Source: Prorocentrum cordatum
Lineage: Eukaryota
Assembly: GCA_963575745.1 (NCBI GenBank)
Contig: CAUYUJ010000114.1
Coordinates: 62,001 to 126,000, forward strand
Length of the DNA stretch: 64,000 nt
Direction: 5' to 3'
The notes below the pieces were generated by a model. The model was not told where the DNA came from and did not search any database. It saw only the letters and a list, made by a program, of their open reading frames with translations. Position numbers and translations under genes: made by a program. Numbering within the stretch: the first letter of the stretch is position 1; each line of letters starts with the position of its first letter. This document shows positions 9,801 through 34,710 of the stretch, one piece after another.

Positions 9801-12800
9801 CCCAGGCTGATGACTGCTGACTGCTGACTGTTTCCTGGTTTCTGATTCCAGCTTCCTGCTCCCTGCTCGTCGGGATTCGGGATGATGGCGGGAGGCGGCC
9901 TCTGCCCGGCGTTGCGGGCGGCGGCCTATCTCCCATCTGTCACCTTTCACCTTTGACCATTGTGTAGGCCGTAGGCGGTAGGCGTGCCAGAGGCCAGAGG
10001 CGAGATGCCAGATCAGATGTCATAATGCCAGAATCGGGATTCCTAAGCTAGTCTTGGCCTCTTGGCCAGGGCCATCCTGGCCCAGGATCGGAGCGCGCGC
10101 CTTGATTGGCCAGGGCATGGGGCATGGGGCATGGGGCATAGGGCAAGGGGCATGGAGTAAGGAATCGGAAGGCGGAGGGCGGAGGAGGATGCAGGAACTG
10201 GGGGGCGGAGGGAAAAGGGAGAGCGGGAGAGGGAGAAGGGGACATGGAAGTGGCAAAGAGCAAGGAGCAAGGATGGCGCCCACGCTGATCCCGGGCGCAG
10301 TGTGGCCGCGGCCTGGAAGCACTGAGCACTGCTGGGCAAAGATGGGACCTTCACCATCCATCACGAAGCGCCCTTGCCTGCTATCCGCCACCGTGCTCCC
10401 CTGGCACGCGGCACGCTGAGGCGTGGTACGTAACGCGTAACGAGGGGGCCGACGCCCAACGTGGCCCAATATGGCATATGGCCCCAGACGCCCAGACCCC
10501 AGACCGCGCCAGATGGAAGCTGGAAGCTGGAACAATATGGCTTCCTACCCCCGATCCCCTATACCCGTGGGCCGTGGGCCCGAGAGGGCCTCGGATGGAA
10601 GATGGAAGATGGACCCACGACCTAAGACCTAAGACCTACGACCCGCGATGTCATCGAGCATCGAGCATCGAGGCAGCCCCCCGAGATGCCGAGATGCCGA
10701 GAGGCGAGAGGCCAAGACAATCCAAAAAAGCCCCAGAATCCCACGGCAGGGGGAAGGGCCCCACAACGGCCGACGGCGCGAAAGGGACGCACGACGCACG
10801 ATAACCCCAGGAAAACAGAAAGCGGAGAGCCGCAGGCAGTGTATTTGAAAGGGTGCGCAGACCTGTGCAAGCGCGCAGGACCACTGATCACTTAGAGTCT
10901 AGAGAACAGAGAACAGAGAACTGCGTCCTCGCAAATTATGCGAGAGGGGGCAGGGGGCTGTAATGCCATGCCCCACTCGCTCCACTAGCTCGCTAGCTGC
11001 TAGCTCGCTGCTCACTTCCAAAGCCCCTGATCGTATTCTCACACACGCGCACCTTCCAGTCCAGGTCCGAGAGCCTACCCGAAGTCTCAGTAGTCTGCTG
11101 GTTCACCTGCGTCATCTGCCGATCTATCTGGTCCATGCGGTTGGTGATGGTCTGCATCTCATTAGTATTATGCCGGCTCACCTGCGTCATCTCCTGACCC
11201 AGCTGGTCCATGCGGTTGGTGGTGGCCTGCATCTGCTGCTCCGTATTGGCCAAAGCCAAGGTGGTGGCCAAGGCAGATGCTCTGTCACCTGCTCCGTCAC
11301 CTGCTGCTGCACCTGCTGCTCCGTCACCTGCTGCTGCACCTGCTGCTCCGGCACCTGCTGCCGCACCTGCTGATCCGCTCGATCCGCCCGATGCCGCGGC
11401 TGCCTCCAGTGCTTGCCCGCGTGCCTCGGAGGCCTGCAGGCGATCATTTGCATCCCTAAGCTGCCTCTGGAGCTGTTCTGAGCATCCCTCAGCCGCCTGG
11501 AGACGATCCTCCATTGCCTTCATGCGCTGGTCCCAGCCCGCTAGATGCCGCACGAAGAATTGCTCCAATGGCTCCTGCAAGCGAGTCGTCATGCCCATCA
11601 CGCGCTGGTCCGTCTCCAGCAGCTGATCCTGCACTTGCCGCAATTGATCCGATAGTTGGTCCTGGATGCGCTGGACCTCGCGCTCGGCCTCCTGCAAGTT
11701 GGTCTCCGCGCTGGACATCGTCGTCTCCACGTCCTGCAGATGGGTCCCCGCGCGGGTAGCCGTCGCCTCCGCGCGCTGCAACGTGCCCTCCGCCTCCTGC
11801 ACCTGATTCGCCAGGCTATCGCGAACCTCCTGCGCCCGCTGCAGAGTCTGCAGAGTGGTGTCCACAGTCTTGCGAAATGCAGCCGCCTCGTTCGCCTGGG
11901 CCTGCGACCACGCTGGCCAAGACTGACCTGCACCATCACTTGGAGCAGCTGCTGCCTGAGTGGGCTGCCCGCGGAGCTGCCTGTCATCACCAGCTGCTGC
12001 CGCAACGCCTGCACCTGGCGGAGCTCCTGGTGGCGGACTTGGCCGAGGCGGAGGAACTGGTGCCGCTCCCGCTGCGGCTCCCGCTGCCGCTGCCGCTGCC
12101 GCTGCCGCGTGCCGGACGCCGCCCCACGAGGCTGGGCGCGGGGGCCGCTGTGGGTTCGAGATCACAGCATCCTCTTGGCCAGATTCTTTCAACCACGCCA
12201 TCAAGAGTGCATCAACACTGCTCAGGTGCTTCTCCGACATCAGGTGGGTGTCCCAGTCCGCGTGTTCCCCGCGATTGCAGCAGTACGCGTTGCAAAGTTC
12301 GCAATGAAAACATTGCCACTCAGGTACATACTTGAGGTAGTTGACGGGCTCCATAGTCGACTCCCAGACCTGCGGCGCGATCATGGCTGTCGTCGGCGTA
12401 GCCCTGCGAGACATGTCTGCAGGCTGCGCCCGCCGCCCGCACTATGAGAAGGCAGTTCGCTGTTCGCTAGCCGCTAGCTGCTAGCTGAATGCTGAATGTC
12501 GACAGCTGAAAAGTCGATGCTCAATGCTCGACTGGATGTCGAGCGTCGAGCCAAAACGACTGCGGCCATCGGCCATCTCGCGTTTCGCGCTGGCACTTTG
12601 CATGGGGGCTTCTTGGAAGCCTTCTAGGGGGCCGGGGGCCTGCTGAAAGCGCCGAGCGTCGAAGTTCGTGTGCCCCCATCCCCCATCTTGGATCTTGGGG
12701 TCCTGGATCCTGGATCCTGGGCCCAACGCTCTCTGATCTCTGACCCAGTCCGCGACGCGCGGTTACCTTCGCGCCCCGCGCCCCTGGGGCGCGACCGGCG

Positions 12801-15800
12801 ACCTAACATCTTGCAGTGACCAATTGCCCTCGCACCTCGCACCCCCCCCCCCTCCCCCCCGAGCCCCGAGGGGTGATGGGGGGGAGAGATGCGAGATGAG
12901 GAATGAGAGGGGAAGGAGAGGGGAGAGGGAAGATGGGAGGGAGAGGGAGGAGGGAGGAGGGAGGTGGAGAGTGCGACTGCATACTGCATACTGCATGATG
13001 CATGATGCACGAGGGATTGGGGCTTGGGGCTTGGGGCGGTTGGAAGAACGAGTGAAGAATGAAGAATGCAGGATGCAGGATGCAGAATGGGATGCGGGAT
13101 GCGGCATGGACAGCGGGTTGGCATGGGAGATGAGAGATGGGAGATGGGAGGGAAGAGGGAAGGGAAGAGGGATGAGAGGGAAGAGGGGAAGGGGGACGGG
13201 GCCGAGGGTCGAGATGGGGGATTGGGGATGGGGGGAGGGGGAGGGAGAATGAGCGGTGGGAGGTGGGAGGGGTGGAGGGTGGAGGGTGGAGGGAGAAGAG
13301 AGGAGAGAGGAGAGAGGAGAGGGGAGAGGGGGGAGGAGGGAGGGAGGAGTGGGAGAAGAGAGGAGAGAGGAGAGAGGAGAGGGGAGAGGGGGGAGGAGGG
13401 AGGGAGGAGTGGGAGGAGGGAGGAGGGAGGAGAGGGGCGAGCGGGAGTTGACGGTAGACGGTAGACGGTAGACGAGCAGGTCTCGGGCCTCGAGGTGACA
13501 GATCACAGATCCCTGTCAGATGTCAGATGTCAGATGTACGACGTAGGACGCAGGACCCAGGAACCCAGGACTCAGGATCTCAGGATGGCTGATGGCTGAG
13601 AAGGAGACACAAAATGTAAAGGCGTGTTCGCGAACAGGGGAAGCCAAAATGCCTGGGATCCAGCTGCAAGGTGACCGAGGCAAAACCGGCCTCTGTGCTG
13701 AGGCGGTACACCGCCACGTCCAGGTTGGAGGGCCCCATGATGGTGTACTTCCCCCCCGCCGACATGTGCCTCGGCGGGGTCTTCGCGGTCTCGACATTCT
13801 CCAGAATATAGCCCACCTTAGAGCAATTGGCACTGGGCAGCAGCAGCAAAGAGCAGGGTCCGGGGTCCAGGTGGCGAGAATGGAATGAAGACTAAGGACA
13901 AGGGAGGGGACGAATCGGAGAGAAGAGGATGGGATATGGGATATAGGAGATAGGGGATAGGGGATAGGAGATAAGGTGGGATAGGATATGAGAGATAGGA
14001 GCTAGGAGAAGGAGAGAAGCAGAAGGAGATGATGGATGATGATGAGCGGGATGCGAGGTGCAAGATGGCGGTGGTGACGGTGATGGGTGATGGGTGATGG
14101 GGGGCGACAGTGATGATGATGATGATGATGATGAGGATGAGGATGATGATGGATGATGGATGATGGCGATGATGAGGGCGAGCGGAGAGCGGAGGCGGAC
14201 GGGGTGGGGAGGAATGAAGAATGAGGGATGAGGAATGAGGGCGAGTGGCGAGTCGGAGGTAACAGGTAACGAGGCCAGAGGGAACGCGTATGTAATGAAG
14301 ATTTAAGGCTTACTGGGCAACAGGCTCCGAGGAGGGAGGAGGACGGAGGGCAAGAGGAGAGAGGGGGGAGGGAGGAGGGGGGGGGGGGTGGGGGGGGAGG
14401 GGGGGGGGGGAGGGGGGGGGAGGGGGGATGGGGGATGGGGGACTCCAGACTCCAGACTCCAGACTCCTGGAAGGACCTGGCGACAGAAGGGAGAAGGGGG
14501 AAGCAGCAGGGAAGAGGGGAGCGGGAGAGAAAGACTCGGGACTCCTGAGAGACTCGGCGCTGCGGACTGCGGGCTCCTCCCTCCCCCCTCCTCCCTCCTC
14601 CCTCCCCCCTCCTCCCACGACGCCCCGGAGGGCGGAGAGCCAGGGCAGCGGCGCGTTAGCGCGTTAGCGCGATCGGTCCTCGTGGCTCGTGGCTCGTAGG
14701 AGGAGGGGGAGGGAGGAAGGAGGAGGGAGGAGAGAGGAGGAGGAGGAAGACGAGGAAGCGGGGCGGAGGACGGAAGGCCGCTAGGGCGGCCCAGAGGGCC
14801 ACAGGTCGGGGCCGACGCAAGCGGCAGGCAAGCGGCAGGTGGCCGGCAGGAACGGCCCCTCATGGGCGGCAGGTGGCTGGCAGGAGCGGCCCCCTCATGG
14901 CAGTGCTGCAGGCCCCCCTCCCCCTGATAGCTGGCCCCCCCCCGATAGCTGGCAGCCCCCCTCCCCCTGATAGCTGGCAGCCCCACCCCCTGATAGCTGG
15001 CAGCCCCCCTCCCCCCCTTCCTGGCAGCCCCCCCCCTGATAAAACATACAAAACGCTTGTGTTTTTGTAACTGTCCGCCCCCTGCCAGCGACGCCTGCCA
15101 GCTATTCCTGCCAGCTATCCTGCCCCCCCAGCTCTCCCGTCAGCTATGTCGTCAGCTATGCCGTCAGCTATGCCGTCAGCTATGCCGTCAGCTATCCGCC
15201 AGCTATCCGTCAGCTATCCGTCAGCTATCCGTCAGCTATCCGTCAGCTATCACATCGGGCTCCTCGGAGCCTCCTTGGAGGCTGGAGGCCGGAGGCCCGC
15301 GGGCCCGCGGCCCGCGTCGGGGTTCGGGTCGGGCGGGGGTTGGGGGCTGGGTGGCTGGGTGCTGGGTGGGAGGAGCCAGGGGCCAGCAGCCAGCGCGCCG
15401 CTCGCCGCTCGCCCTTGCGCCCCTGCACCCTGCACCCTGCCTCCTGCCTCCGAACTCCGAACTCCGAAGGTCCGAAGGCTATGGGCTGCTCCTTTTCCCT
15501 TTCCTCCTGCCTCCTGCCTCCTGCCTCCTCCCTCCTCCTTCCTCCTCCTCATCCCTCCTCCCTCCTCCTCCTCCCTTCTCCCTTCTCTCTTCTCCTCCTC
15601 CTCCTCCTCCAATGCCCTCGCGCAGGTCGCAGGTCAGACCGAATGCCCCCCTAGTTTCCAGTTACCCCCGCCCCCCGCCCACACGCACCACGCACCGCGG
15701 CCCACGGCGTCAAACAGTTCAACGAACCACGGACCGCGGGCCACGGACCACGGACCCCAAGACGCGAGACGCCCCCAGAGCCCAGAGCCCAGAGGGCAGA

Positions 15801-34683: not shown

Positions 34684-34710
34684 TGAGCCAAGAGCCAAAA
34701 CGGCTATGGT
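34684..34710 (-). other. Relict spliced-leader-like sequence carrying a 7-nt duplication
   Basis: Minus strand reads accatagccgttttggctc[ttggctc]ag versus ACCGTAGCCATTTTGGCTCAAG (17/19 before the duplication). Confidence 0.8.

What the first reader, a model, noticed from the sequence alone, without database searches (positions are those of the whole stretch)
12546..34710. Four cargo genes each have a genomically encoded spliced-leader-like sequence upstream
Seen: DinoSL-like motifs on the coding strand at 12546-12565, 17831-17849, 22461-22482 and 34684-34710, 15-190 nt before the ATGs. Three share the same A>G change (..cGttttggctc). Known: dinoflagellate mRNAs receive a 22-nt leader (DCCGTAGCCATTTTGGCTCAAG) by trans-splicing, and relict leaders mark retroposed genes. 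Inference: either the cargo was captured as reverse-transcribed mRNAs (two landing in DNMT introns, two gaining introns later), or the element hard-codes leader mimics to express its genes without trans-splicing.
Basis: partly seen in the sequence, partly recalled or inferred. Interest (0 to 1): 0.75.

Follow-up and report, generated by a model that had tools for sequence, protein, structure and literature searches.

The report
Relict spliced leaders with a G variant
Three, perhaps four, neighbouring genes carry a decayed copy of the dinoflagellate spliced leader just upstream, the usual scar of genes copied back from mRNA, but all copies share an unreported A-to-G change.

Summary
Three of the four motifs are real. 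Sites 12545-12565, 17830-17857 and 34689-34709 lie on the minus strand. They are the three best matches to the 21-nt DinoSL in the whole window on either strand: 16, 17 and 17 of 21 bases, against 0.18 such hits expected. Site 22458-22482 aligns only with four gaps and is weak.

Each motif lies 12-193 nt before the first ATG of an uninterrupted same-strand ORF of 225-473 aa. The flanks of the motifs are unrelated. This pattern fits relict spliced leaders of retroposed mRNAs, which are already reported for over 20% of Symbiodinium genes (PMC5585692).

The "hard-coded leader mimic" reading is not supported here. The copies are decayed, their spacing varies, and they share no promoter block.

One thing is new. 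Sites 1, 2 and 4 read CGTTTTGGCTC, with G in place of A at leader position 10. So does the near-intact leader upstream of the closest environmental homologue of gene 4 (L001). That string is in no paper of the searched library. The source lineage probably uses a G10 leader.

Gene 2 lies between two cytosine-methyltransferase-like fragments. No genome or RNA data were available.

The parts
12545..12565 (-). Site 1: leader-like motif CCGCAGTCGTTTTGGCTCGAC. 16/21 to the canonical DinoSL and 18/21 to the form seen in L001. Flanked by short tandem duplications (GATGGCC twice, GCTCGAC twice).
10993..12414 (-). Gene 1: uninterrupted 473-aa ORF whose ATG lies 130 nt after site 1. N-terminal C-x2-C...H-x6-H zinc-finger-like stretch (seen by eye) followed by a long coiled-coil-like region. 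Near-identical and 90%-identical protein fragments exist in public assemblies, plus one relative at 45% identity.
17830..17857 (-). Site 2: CCGTAGC-TCATAGC-CGTTTTGGCTCAAA. Reads as a leader with an internal imperfect 7-nt tandem duplication. 17/21 ungapped; 11-nt exact match TTTTGGCTCAA.
16327..17715 (-). Gene 2: uninterrupted 462-aa ORF whose ATG lies 114 nt after site 2. Its Arg/Ser-rich C-terminal third may be out of frame, because an overlapping 289-aa frame runs over 16124-16993. No family assigned.
22458..22482 (-). Site 3: weak leader-like stretch CCGCAGCCCTGTTGTTGGCTCAGAG. The longest exact match to DinoSL is 8 nt and the alignment needs 4 gaps.
21768..22445 (-). Gene 3: uninterrupted 225-aa ORF from the ATG 12 nt after site 3. 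An earlier in-frame ATG at 22532 is also possible. Contains W-x-C-x2-C...C-x2-C, which looks like a RanBP2-type zinc finger by eye.
34689..34709 (-). Site 4: CCATAGCCGTTTTGGCTCTTG, 17/21. The 3' end is blurred by a TTGGCTC tandem duplication followed by GGCTCAG repeats.
33167..34495 (-). Gene 4: uninterrupted 442-aa ORF whose ATG lies 193 nt after site 4. The variable N-terminus carries 27-aa repeats. The C-terminal ~180 aa are strongly conserved (..RPIYIGTTSDPxWRF..H..E..N..) and look GIY-YIG-like by eye and by an Atlas lead. Five homologue clusters at 41-56% identity.
19669..20505 (-). Cytosine-5 methyltransferase-like fragment A (..FSTICSGTD.. and ..GSPCDD..). Residues 124-253 match the methyltransferase part of the PDB DNMT5 chain 7r76_A. 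A 66%-identical public protein ends at the same point.
13580..13891 (-). Cytosine-5 methyltransferase-like fragment B (..ILENV.. and ..FGFPCSRTRLYIL..). 29 of 30 nearest named Atlas clusters carry PF00145. Gene 2 and site 2 lie between fragments A and B.
49037..50134 (-). Context only: ORF with a weak reverse-transcriptase match (RVT_1, E 1.5e-5, 25.3 bits, below the 29.6-bit cut-off). A possible retroelement in the same window.

Best explanation
The motifs are relict spliced leaders.

Proposed mechanism:
- Each downstream gene began as a mature mRNA carrying the trans-spliced leader.
- That mRNA was reverse-transcribed and inserted into the genome. Gene 2 went in between two pieces of a cytosine-methyltransferase-like gene.
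- The leader copy then decayed by point changes and by the 3-7-nt tandem duplications that fill this genome's non-coding DNA.
- The new copies are presumably transcribed from upstream sequence or from the T-rich leader core. They would then receive a fresh leader by trans-splicing, most simply at the AG kept at leader positions 6-7 of every copy.

Shown: the motifs, their strand, their position, their excess over chance, the intact ORFs, and a leader upstream of a homologue.

Inferred: retroposition itself, that the host is a dinoflagellate-type organism, and present-day trans-splicing.

Sub-claim, at about 0.55: the leader of the source lineage has G instead of A at position 10, so the shared A>G was inherited from the leader RNA and did not arise three times.
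For: - Sites 1, 2 and 4 are the top three DinoSL matches in 128 kb of both strands: 3 observed at 16/21 or better against 0.18 expected, and 0 of 300 simulations reached 3.
- All are on the strand of the ORFs, 114-193 nt before the first ATG (12 nt for the weak site 3). All four ORFs are uninterrupted.
- An alignment of 220 nt around the four sites shows no similarity beyond the motif, so this is not a repeat family.
- Sites 1, 2 and 4 meet the published criterion of a 9-nt exact match within 500 bp upstream of an ORF. Relicts are reported upstream of 22-23% of gene models in two Symbiodinium genomes (PMC5585692, passages).
- Site 2 reads as a whole leader once an imperfect 7-nt internal duplication is allowed.
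- L001 is a metagenome contig encoding the closest relative of gene 4 (54% identity over residues 197-442). It has TCCGTAGCCGTTTTGGCTCGAG, 20/22 to DinoSL, 23 nt before its ATG, with microsatellite-like DNA upstream.
- More distant homologues L002 and L003 have a decayed, canonical-like TCCGCACCATTT.. stretch about 85 nt before the ATG.
- Gene 1 has a 90%-identical partial paralogue in public data, as expected of a duplicating family.
- A weak reverse-transcriptase ORF is in the window.
- For G10: three window sites and L001, which was found through protein homology and not through the motif, all have G at position 10. My hand estimate for four decayed canonical copies sharing one substitution by chance is about 1e-3.
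Against: - No poly(A) remnant lies within 1200 nt after genes 1, 3 and 4. Gene 2 has two weak A-rich 12-mers, 259 and 1059 nt past frame-B position 16127, which is not that frame's stop (16124-16126) nor frame A's (16327); the nearer one is about 256 nt past the frame-B stop.
- No target-site duplications or parent genes could be sought, because no genome is held.
- No RNA evidence was available. I could not show that the host is a dinoflagellate; this is inferred from the motif, the one-strand gene order and the homologues.
- The mismatches are not spread evenly. Against the G10 form, none of the 11 mismatches in the four relicts falls in the 11-nt core at positions 9-19 (P = 1.2e-4). Neutral decay does not predict this, so it hints at constraint.
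- Three of the other four homologous loci with an identifiable start (L002, L004, L005) show no convincing motif, and L003 only a distant 14/21 hit.
- L147 is an exact G10 22-mer 44 nt before an ATG in a eukaryote-like contig. It was found by searching for G10, and it could be a one-off decay product of a canonical leader. The 17 hits of that scan equal the number expected by chance.
Confidence: 0.7

Rival explanations
1. Built-in functional element. The leader core, whatever its origin, is kept by selection as a promoter, initiator or leader. The genes, some nested in another gene, are then expressed on their own, either with the genomic copy as their 5' end (leader mimicry) or with its TTTT/G tract as a basal promoter.
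For: - The 11-nt core CGTTTTGGCTC is identical in sites 1, 2, 4 and L001, while 11 mismatches fall in the 10 outer positions (P = 1.2e-4).
- Song et al. propose that the TTT(T/G) of relicts serves as a promoter and report that relicts 50-100 bp upstream are best conserved (PMC5585692, passages).
- A DinoSL at the 5' end of transcripts of a Symbiodinium RNA virus has been read as molecular mimicry (Levin et al. 2017, as cited in PMC9651163, passages).
- In giant-virus contigs I saw exact leaders abutting an AT-rich block about 48 nt before the ATGs, so hard-coding does occur in nature.
Against: - In the window the copies are decayed at both ends (16-17 of 21).
- They lie 12-193 nt from the ATG and have no shared upstream block. 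The viral copies are unlike this: 139 of 145 are exact.
- There is no expression data.
Confidence: 0.15
2. The shared G is not encoded in the leader gene but records an RNA modification. On this reading the A at leader position 10 is edited or modified in the mRNA, for example to inosine. It is then read as G when the mRNA is reverse-transcribed during retroposition.
For: Only the pattern itself: every relict seen from this GC-rich lineage has G at that one position, while the leader is reported as conserved across dinoflagellates (PMC6616646 abstract; PMC3101222 passages). That a reverse transcriptase reads inosine as G is general knowledge, recalled.
Against: The canonical leader sequence was itself derived from cDNA and reads A there, so such a modification would have to be specific to this lineage. 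A plain G10 leader gene is simpler. Nothing in my calls tests this.
Confidence: 0.05
3. The motif has nothing to do with the spliced leader. It is a short palindromic cis-element (AGCC-N5-GGCT), a chance product of this repeat-rich DNA, or an SL RNA gene or pseudogene.
For: - The core is an inverted repeat.
- The window is full of short tandem duplications and low-complexity DNA.
- Site 3 is at chance level against the canonical leader.
Against: - The similarity runs beyond the palindrome into CCGTAG (site 2, L001) and AA(G) (site 2).
- The count is far above the simulations.
- No GT donor follows any copy, and Rfam finds no RNA gene in the window (0 matches).
Confidence: 0.07

Closest known systems
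Relict DinoSL upstream of retrogenes ('mRNA recycling'): Song et al. 2017, PMC5585692; review PMC6050394 (search listing only); Slamovits and Keeling 2008 (recalled, and cited in PMC5585692)
   Same: - A partial copy of the 22-nt leader on the coding strand within 500 bp upstream of an ORF.
- An exact stretch of 9 nt or more.
- The T-rich core is retained best.
- The AG at leader positions 6-7 is kept.
- Several neighbouring genes are affected.
   Different: - All copies here carry G at position 10, which those papers do not report in the passages I read.
- No parent genes, tandem relicts or poly(A) traces could be shown.
- The host is unidentified and unusually GC-rich: 50-67% per 2-kb window, mostly about 60%.
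Perkinsus spliced-leader variants PmaSL1 and PmaSL2 (PMC3101222, passages read)
   Same: A lineage-specific departure from the otherwise conserved leader, lying in the same central AUUUUGG region.
   Different: Perkinsus changes T to C or deletes a T (CCATCTTGG, CCATCTGG). Here the change is A to G one base earlier (CCGTTTTGG). It is inferred from genomic relicts only, not from SL RNA genes or cDNA.
Leader mimicry by a virus: DinoSL at the 5' end of transcripts of a Symbiodinium +ssRNA virus (Levin et al. 2017, as cited in PMC9651163, passages read)
   Same: A leader sequence written into the genome of a mobile or foreign entity.
   Different: Nothing marks the window's copies as an intact, functional 5' end. 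They are decayed and irregularly spaced.
SL RNA genes and 'SL-like genes' of Fugacium kawagutii (PMC6616646, passages read)
   Same: Genomic copies of the leader, sometimes with small departures (TCG for TCCG).
   Different: Those are short non-coding loci, with a splice donor after the leader in the true genes. The window's copies precede long ORFs and have no donor.

Membership tests
Relict DinoSL of a retroposed gene | Exact match of at least 9 nt to the DinoSL within 500 bp upstream of an ORF (criterion of Song et al. 2017, PMC5585692) | tested here: met
   Sites 1 and 4 have TTTTGGCTC (9 nt) and site 2 has TTTTGGCTCAA (11 nt), 114-193 nt before the ATG. Site 3 has only 8 nt (TTGGCTCA) and does not meet it.
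Relict DinoSL of a retroposed gene | Same strand as the gene, and more frequent than chance | tested here: met
   3 of 3 hits at 16/21 or better are on the minus strand with the ORFs. 0.18 expected; 0 of 300 simulations reach 3.
Relict DinoSL of a retroposed gene | The host trans-splices the DinoSL onto its mRNAs (dinoflagellate or close relative) | not testable with these tools
   No genome is held and no RNA run was listed. The host is inferred only from the motif, the one-strand gene order and leader-bearing homologous contigs.
Relict DinoSL of a retroposed gene | Processed structure: intronless copy, with an intron-bearing parent elsewhere | tested here: inconclusive
   All four ORFs are uninterrupted from ATG to stop. 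Parents could not be sought without the genome. Only partial paralogues were seen as proteins.
Relict DinoSL of a retroposed gene | Poly(A) remnant or target-site duplication at the 3' end | tested here: not met
   No A-rich 12-mer (9 or more A) lies within 1200 nt after genes 1, 3 and 4. Gene 2 has two weak ones, the nearer about 256 nt past its frame-B stop at 16124-16126 (sequences read). This feature is often lost in old copies, so its absence weakens the claim but does not exclude it.
Hard-coded (genome-encoded, functional) leader of a virus or mobile element | Intact or near-intact full-length leader at a fixed place after a shared promoter block, repeated on many genes of the element | tested here: not met
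   The window copies have 4-5 mismatches in 21 and lie 12-193 nt from the ATG, with no shared flank. Giant-virus contigs differ: 139 of 145 hits there are exact, 132 of 139 are preceded by A, and the 40 nt upstream are 90% A+T.
SL RNA gene | Leader exon followed by a splice donor and a short intron; short non-coding transcript | tested here: not met
   The bases after the motifs are CAAAGC, GCTCAG and GCTCGA, with no GT donor, and long ORFs follow. Rfam gives 0 matches in the window.
C5 cytosine methyltransferase (host gene around gene 2) | Catalytic motifs in order on one strand (I and IV upstream; VI and VIII downstream) | tested here: inconclusive
   - Fragment A matches PDB DNMT5 chain 7r76_A with E 7.2e-5.
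- Fragment B has 29 of 30 nearest named Atlas clusters carrying PF00145.
- Pfam itself gives no hit for either fragment.
- The motif names are recalled, not taken from a call.
- Motifs IX and X were not found, except GGNAFP by eye at about 9142.

The most novel reading that the evidence does not exclude
The copies are not passive scars.
- The source lineage uses a spliced leader that differs from the supposedly universal DinoSL at position 10 (G for A, changing the presumed Sm-type site AUUUUGG to GUUUUGG).
- After retroposition, the 11-nt core including that G is held by selection as a built-in promoter or trans-splice landing pad.
- This lets genes dropped into the introns of another gene (here a cytosine methyltransferase) be expressed on their own.
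Probability: 0.2. Interest if true: 0.6.

Novelty: new variant of a known kind. Interest (0 to 1): 0.35.

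Why it matters
Relict leaders are the standard tag for counting and dating retrogenes in dinoflagellates, so finding more of them is ordinary.

The shared G at position 10 is the useful part, for three reasons.
- If a lineage uses a G10 leader, searches and primers built on the canonical 22-mer will under-count its transcripts and retrogenes.
- The claim that the leader is invariant across dinoflagellates would need a footnote.
- The change falls in the presumed Sm-binding stretch.

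The uneven decay (intact core, worn ends) bears on the open question of whether relicts are kept because they supply a promoter.

A side observation may matter more than the finding itself. Giant-virus contigs carry dozens of exact, genome-encoded DinoSL copies in front of their genes. This would be a clear case of leader mimicry by a DNA virus.

Tried and rejected
- **Whole genome:** none is held for this window. Genome-wide strand and position tests, parent genes and SL RNA genes could therefore not be examined.
- **Sequencing runs:** no RNA holder was listed for window 10900-18000.
- **Six-frame Pfam scan by long references:** I scanned ORFs instead.
  - All 166 stop-to-stop ORFs of 150 aa or more were scanned (58, 108).
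  - 150 of the 230 minus-strand ORFs of 50-149 aa that passed an entropy filter were scanned. The other 80, all at 43879 or higher, were not.
  - None of the 262 plus-strand small ORFs was scanned.
  - The only hits were weak: Zip, RVT_1 and some coiled-coil noise.
- **'Longer' homologue search with methyltransferase fragment A:** none found.
- **PDB sequence searches:** nothing meaningful for ORFs 36377-37432, 37189-38787 and 13583-13891. The integrase-like look of 36374-37432 (ADNGGE....PWQNW..) therefore rests on my eye alone.
- **Structure prediction of the conserved C-terminal domain of gene 4** (6-sequence alignment A3): mean pLDDT 43.7, unusable, so no fold search was run. 'GIY-YIG-like' rests on motifs seen by eye and on an Atlas lead (score 0.91, 132 shared features).
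- **Terminal repeats of an 'element':** only low-complexity repeats were found.
- **G10 18-mer in viral contigs:** 0 hits.
- **G10 18-mer in prokaryote genome contigs:** 17 hits, which is the number expected by chance. One of them (L137/L143) lies inside a bacterial ORF on the other strand.
- **Earlier findings of this scan:** nothing relevant.
- **Considered and rejected:** that CATTTTGGCT at 13642 is a fifth relict; it is coding sequence.

Full report
**What is there**

The four motifs lie on the minus strand, which is also the strand of the ORFs that follow them. I scanned both strands of the 64-kb window, without gaps, against the 21-nt leader CCGTAGCCATTTTGGCTCAAG. The three best matches anywhere in the window are:

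| Site | Coordinates | Match |
|---|---|---|
| 1 | 12545-12565 | 16/21 |
| 2 | 17830-17850 | 17/21 |
| 4 | 34689-34709 | 17/21 |

Nothing on the plus strand reaches 16. In 300 first-order Markov simulations of the window, the mean number of hits at 16/21 or better was 0.18, and none of the 300 had three. The 9-mer TTTTGGCTC occurs three times, all on the minus strand, against 0.57 expected.

Site 3 (22458-22482) falls below 14/21 ungapped. It aligns only with four gaps. Its gapped score against the canonical leader is 22, a level at which 2.5 hits per window are expected. Its score of 26 against the G-containing form has 0.14 expected, but that query was derived after the fact from the other sites. 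I count three sites as confirmed and one as weak.

**Anatomy**

Read on the minus strand, the sites are:

- Site 1: GCCGCAGTCGTTTTGGCTCGAC
- Site 2: CCCGTAGCTCATAGCCGTTTTGGCTCAAA
- Site 4: ACCATAGCCGTTTTGGCTCTTG

Site 2 reads as a complete leader once an imperfect 7-nt internal tandem duplication (CGTAGCT / CATAGCC) is allowed. In site 4 the 3' end is blurred by a TTGGCTC duplication. Site 1 sits between the duplicated heptamers GATGGCC and GCTCGAC. Such 3-9-nt tandem duplications fill the non-coding DNA of this window.

All three sites share CGTTTTGGCTC, with G where the canonical leader has A at position 10. All keep the AG of leader positions 6-7. An alignment of 220 nt around the four sites shows no similarity outside the motif, so this is not a dispersed repeat family.

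The first ATG follows after 130, 114, 12 and 193 nt. From it, uninterrupted ORFs of 473, 462, 225 and 442 aa run to a stop.

**The genes**

- **Gene 1.** It has a zinc-finger-like N-terminus (seen by eye) and a long coiled-coil-like region; Pfam gives only weak coiled-coil noise. A scan of 1.8 billion representative proteins found 6 hits. Two are near-identical fragments (99% and 90% identity) and one is a relative at 45% identity.
- **Gene 4.** It has a strongly conserved C-terminal domain of about 180 aa, shared with five unnamed protein clusters at 41-56% identity. The domain looks GIY-YIG-like by eye and by an Atlas lead. The structure prediction failed, with pLDDT 43.7.
- **Genes 2 and 3.** Neither has an assigned family.

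**Context**

- ORF 19669-20505 (minus strand) matches the methyltransferase part of a solved DNMT5 structure (7r76_A, E 7.2e-5). A 66%-identical public protein stops at the same point.
- ORF 13580-13891 (minus strand) contains ..ILENV.. and ..FGFPCSRTRLYIL... Of its 30 nearest named Atlas clusters, 29 carry PF00145.
- Gene 2 and its motif lie between these two fragments. For gene 1 the only support is a GGNAFP seen by eye at about 9142.
- Pfam itself does not detect either methyltransferase fragment.
- I found no long terminal or inverted repeats that would bound an 'element'. Rfam finds no RNA gene.
- A weak reverse-transcriptase ORF lies at 49037-50134.

**Related sequences**

A scan of metagenome contigs with the gene-4 alignment gave six loci.

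- **L001** is the closest (54% identity, GC 65%). It has TCCGTAGCCGTTTTGGCTCGAG 23 nt before its ATG. That is 20/22 to the DinoSL, with the same A>G at position 10 and the same A>G at position 20 as site 1. A (CCT)n tract and other non-coding DNA lie upstream.
- **L002 and L003**, more distant homologues, show a decayed, canonical-like TCCGCACCATTTCCACATTTTCTGACTC about 85 nt before the ATG. **L004 and L005** show nothing convincing.
- **Prokaryote genome contigs** gave 17 exact hits of the G10 18-mer, which is the number expected by chance. One hit lies in a eukaryote-like 2.6-kb contig binned with a bacterial MAG. There the full 22-mer TCCGTAGCCGTTTTGGCTCAAG lies 44 nt before the ATG of an ORF of about 430 aa. 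Another hit lies inside a bacterial ORF and is chance. Because that scan searched for G10, the eukaryote-like hit is only weak support.
- **IMG/VR viral contigs** hold the canonical 18-mer in 119 loci and the G10 form in none.

**Interpretation**

The pattern is the known one of relict spliced leaders upstream of retroposed genes.

- Song et al. call a relict from a 9-nt exact match within 500 bp upstream of an ORF. They find relicts at 22-23% of gene models in two Symbiodinium genomes. They also note that the T-rich core and the AG are preferentially kept (PMC5585692, passages read).
- Sites 1, 2 and 4 meet that criterion. Site 3 does not.

I therefore read the genes as retrogenes, with confidence 0.7. 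Retroposition, the dinoflagellate nature of the host and present-day trans-splicing are all inferred. There is no poly(A) trace after genes 1, 3 and 4 and only two weak A-rich 12-mers after gene 2, no parent gene, no genome, and no RNA run was listed.

The copies are decayed, irregularly placed and lack a common promoter block.

**What is not ordinary**

1. Every relict from this GC-rich source has G at position 10. L001 was found through protein homology, not through the motif. I estimate by hand a chance of about 1e-3 that four decayed canonical copies share one substitution. The simplest reading is a lineage whose leader RNA has G10 (about 0.55).
   - The literal strings CCGTTTTGGCTC and CCGUUUUGGCUC occur in none of the papers in the searched library.
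   - The variants I found in print are the Perkinsus ones, which differ elsewhere (PMC3101222).
2. Against the G10 form, all 11 mismatches of the four relicts fall in the ten outer positions and none falls in the 11-nt core (P = 1.2e-4). This hints at constraint on the core. The sample is small, however, and the sites were first noticed by their core.

**Noticed in passing**

- The 119 IMG/VR loci are mostly giant-virus bins, with median GC 28%.
- They hold 139 exact 21-mers in 117 loci. Of these, 132 of 139 are preceded by A.
- The 40 nt upstream are 90% A+T at the median and often form a conserved block.
- The first ATG follows after a median of 48 nt, and 119 of 139 first ATGs open at least 60 codons.
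- One bin (951 kb, 94% complete by CheckV) has 74 copies at two mismatches or fewer, against 0 for the reversed control. It also encodes NCLDV major capsid proteins.
- A single 142-kb contig carries both the capsid genes and three leader copies.
- Three literature searches found no paper describing this. PMC9651163 (passages) cites a DinoSL on transcripts of an RNA virus as mimicry.

**Verdict**

The G10 variant is a modest novelty worth checking in the source genome. The mimicry idea is not supported in this window.

Noticed in passing
L007-L125 (IMG/VR viral contigs); handles G003 and G004; example L081:3577-3700 on the minus strand: Giant-virus contigs carry many exact, genome-encoded copies of the canonical DinoSL in front of genes.
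- 139 exact 21-mers in 117 loci; 132 of 139 are preceded by A.
- The 40 nt upstream are 90% A+T and often form a conserved block.
- The first ATG follows after a median of 48 nt.
- One 951-kb bin has 74 copies (reversed control 0) together with NCLDV capsid genes. A single 142-kb contig has both capsid genes and 3 copies.

This looks like leader mimicry by DNA viruses of dinoflagellates. Three literature searches found no description.
   Followed up: partly
window 19669-20505 (-) and 13580-13891 (-); possibly about 9142 (-): A divergent cytosine-5 methyltransferase-like gene is split into widely spaced pieces, with gene 2 nested between them on the same strand. Pfam misses it. Support comes from a PDB DNMT5 match (E 7e-5) and from Atlas neighbours (29 of 30 carry PF00145). 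The catalytic PCQ is replaced by PCD in fragment A (read by eye).
   Followed up: partly
window 36374-37432 (-) and 37186-38787 (-): Two long minus-strand ORFs lie just upstream of site 4. One has an integrase-like ..ADNGGE.. / ..PWQNW.. pattern. The other has ..PRSPWS.. and ..MLENPRGS.., which recall methyltransferase motifs IV and VI. Neither has any Pfam or PDB match. They may belong to a mobile element.
   Followed up: partly
window-wide, e.g. 10500-11020, 12440-12720, 32700-33160: Non-coding DNA consists largely of 5-9-nt units duplicated two or three times in tandem (for example GCTCGAT three times, GTCTTAG twice, CATCTTC twice), on a background of roughly 60% GC. The same process has altered the leader copies at sites 1, 2 and 4.
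   Followed up: no
window 35426-35918: About 12-14 copies of a 33-nt tandem repeat lie between gene 4's motif and the integrase-like ORF. Each unit contains TTTTGGCG on the minus strand, which resembles the leader core only weakly.
   Followed up: no
window 46129-47076 (+) and 30398-31027 (+): Two ORFs have weak ZIP zinc-transporter matches (E 4e-6 and 9e-3, both below the cut-off). They lie on the plus strand in His/Asp-rich repeat regions. 30534-31867 also holds a duplicated block of about 300 nt at 88-90% identity.
   Followed up: no
L147 (G001:C281, 2662 nt): A eukaryote-like contig is binned in a bacterial MAG. It holds two same-strand genes and a perfect G10 leader 44 nt before the second ATG, so it is likely protist contamination of the bin.
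   Followed up: partly
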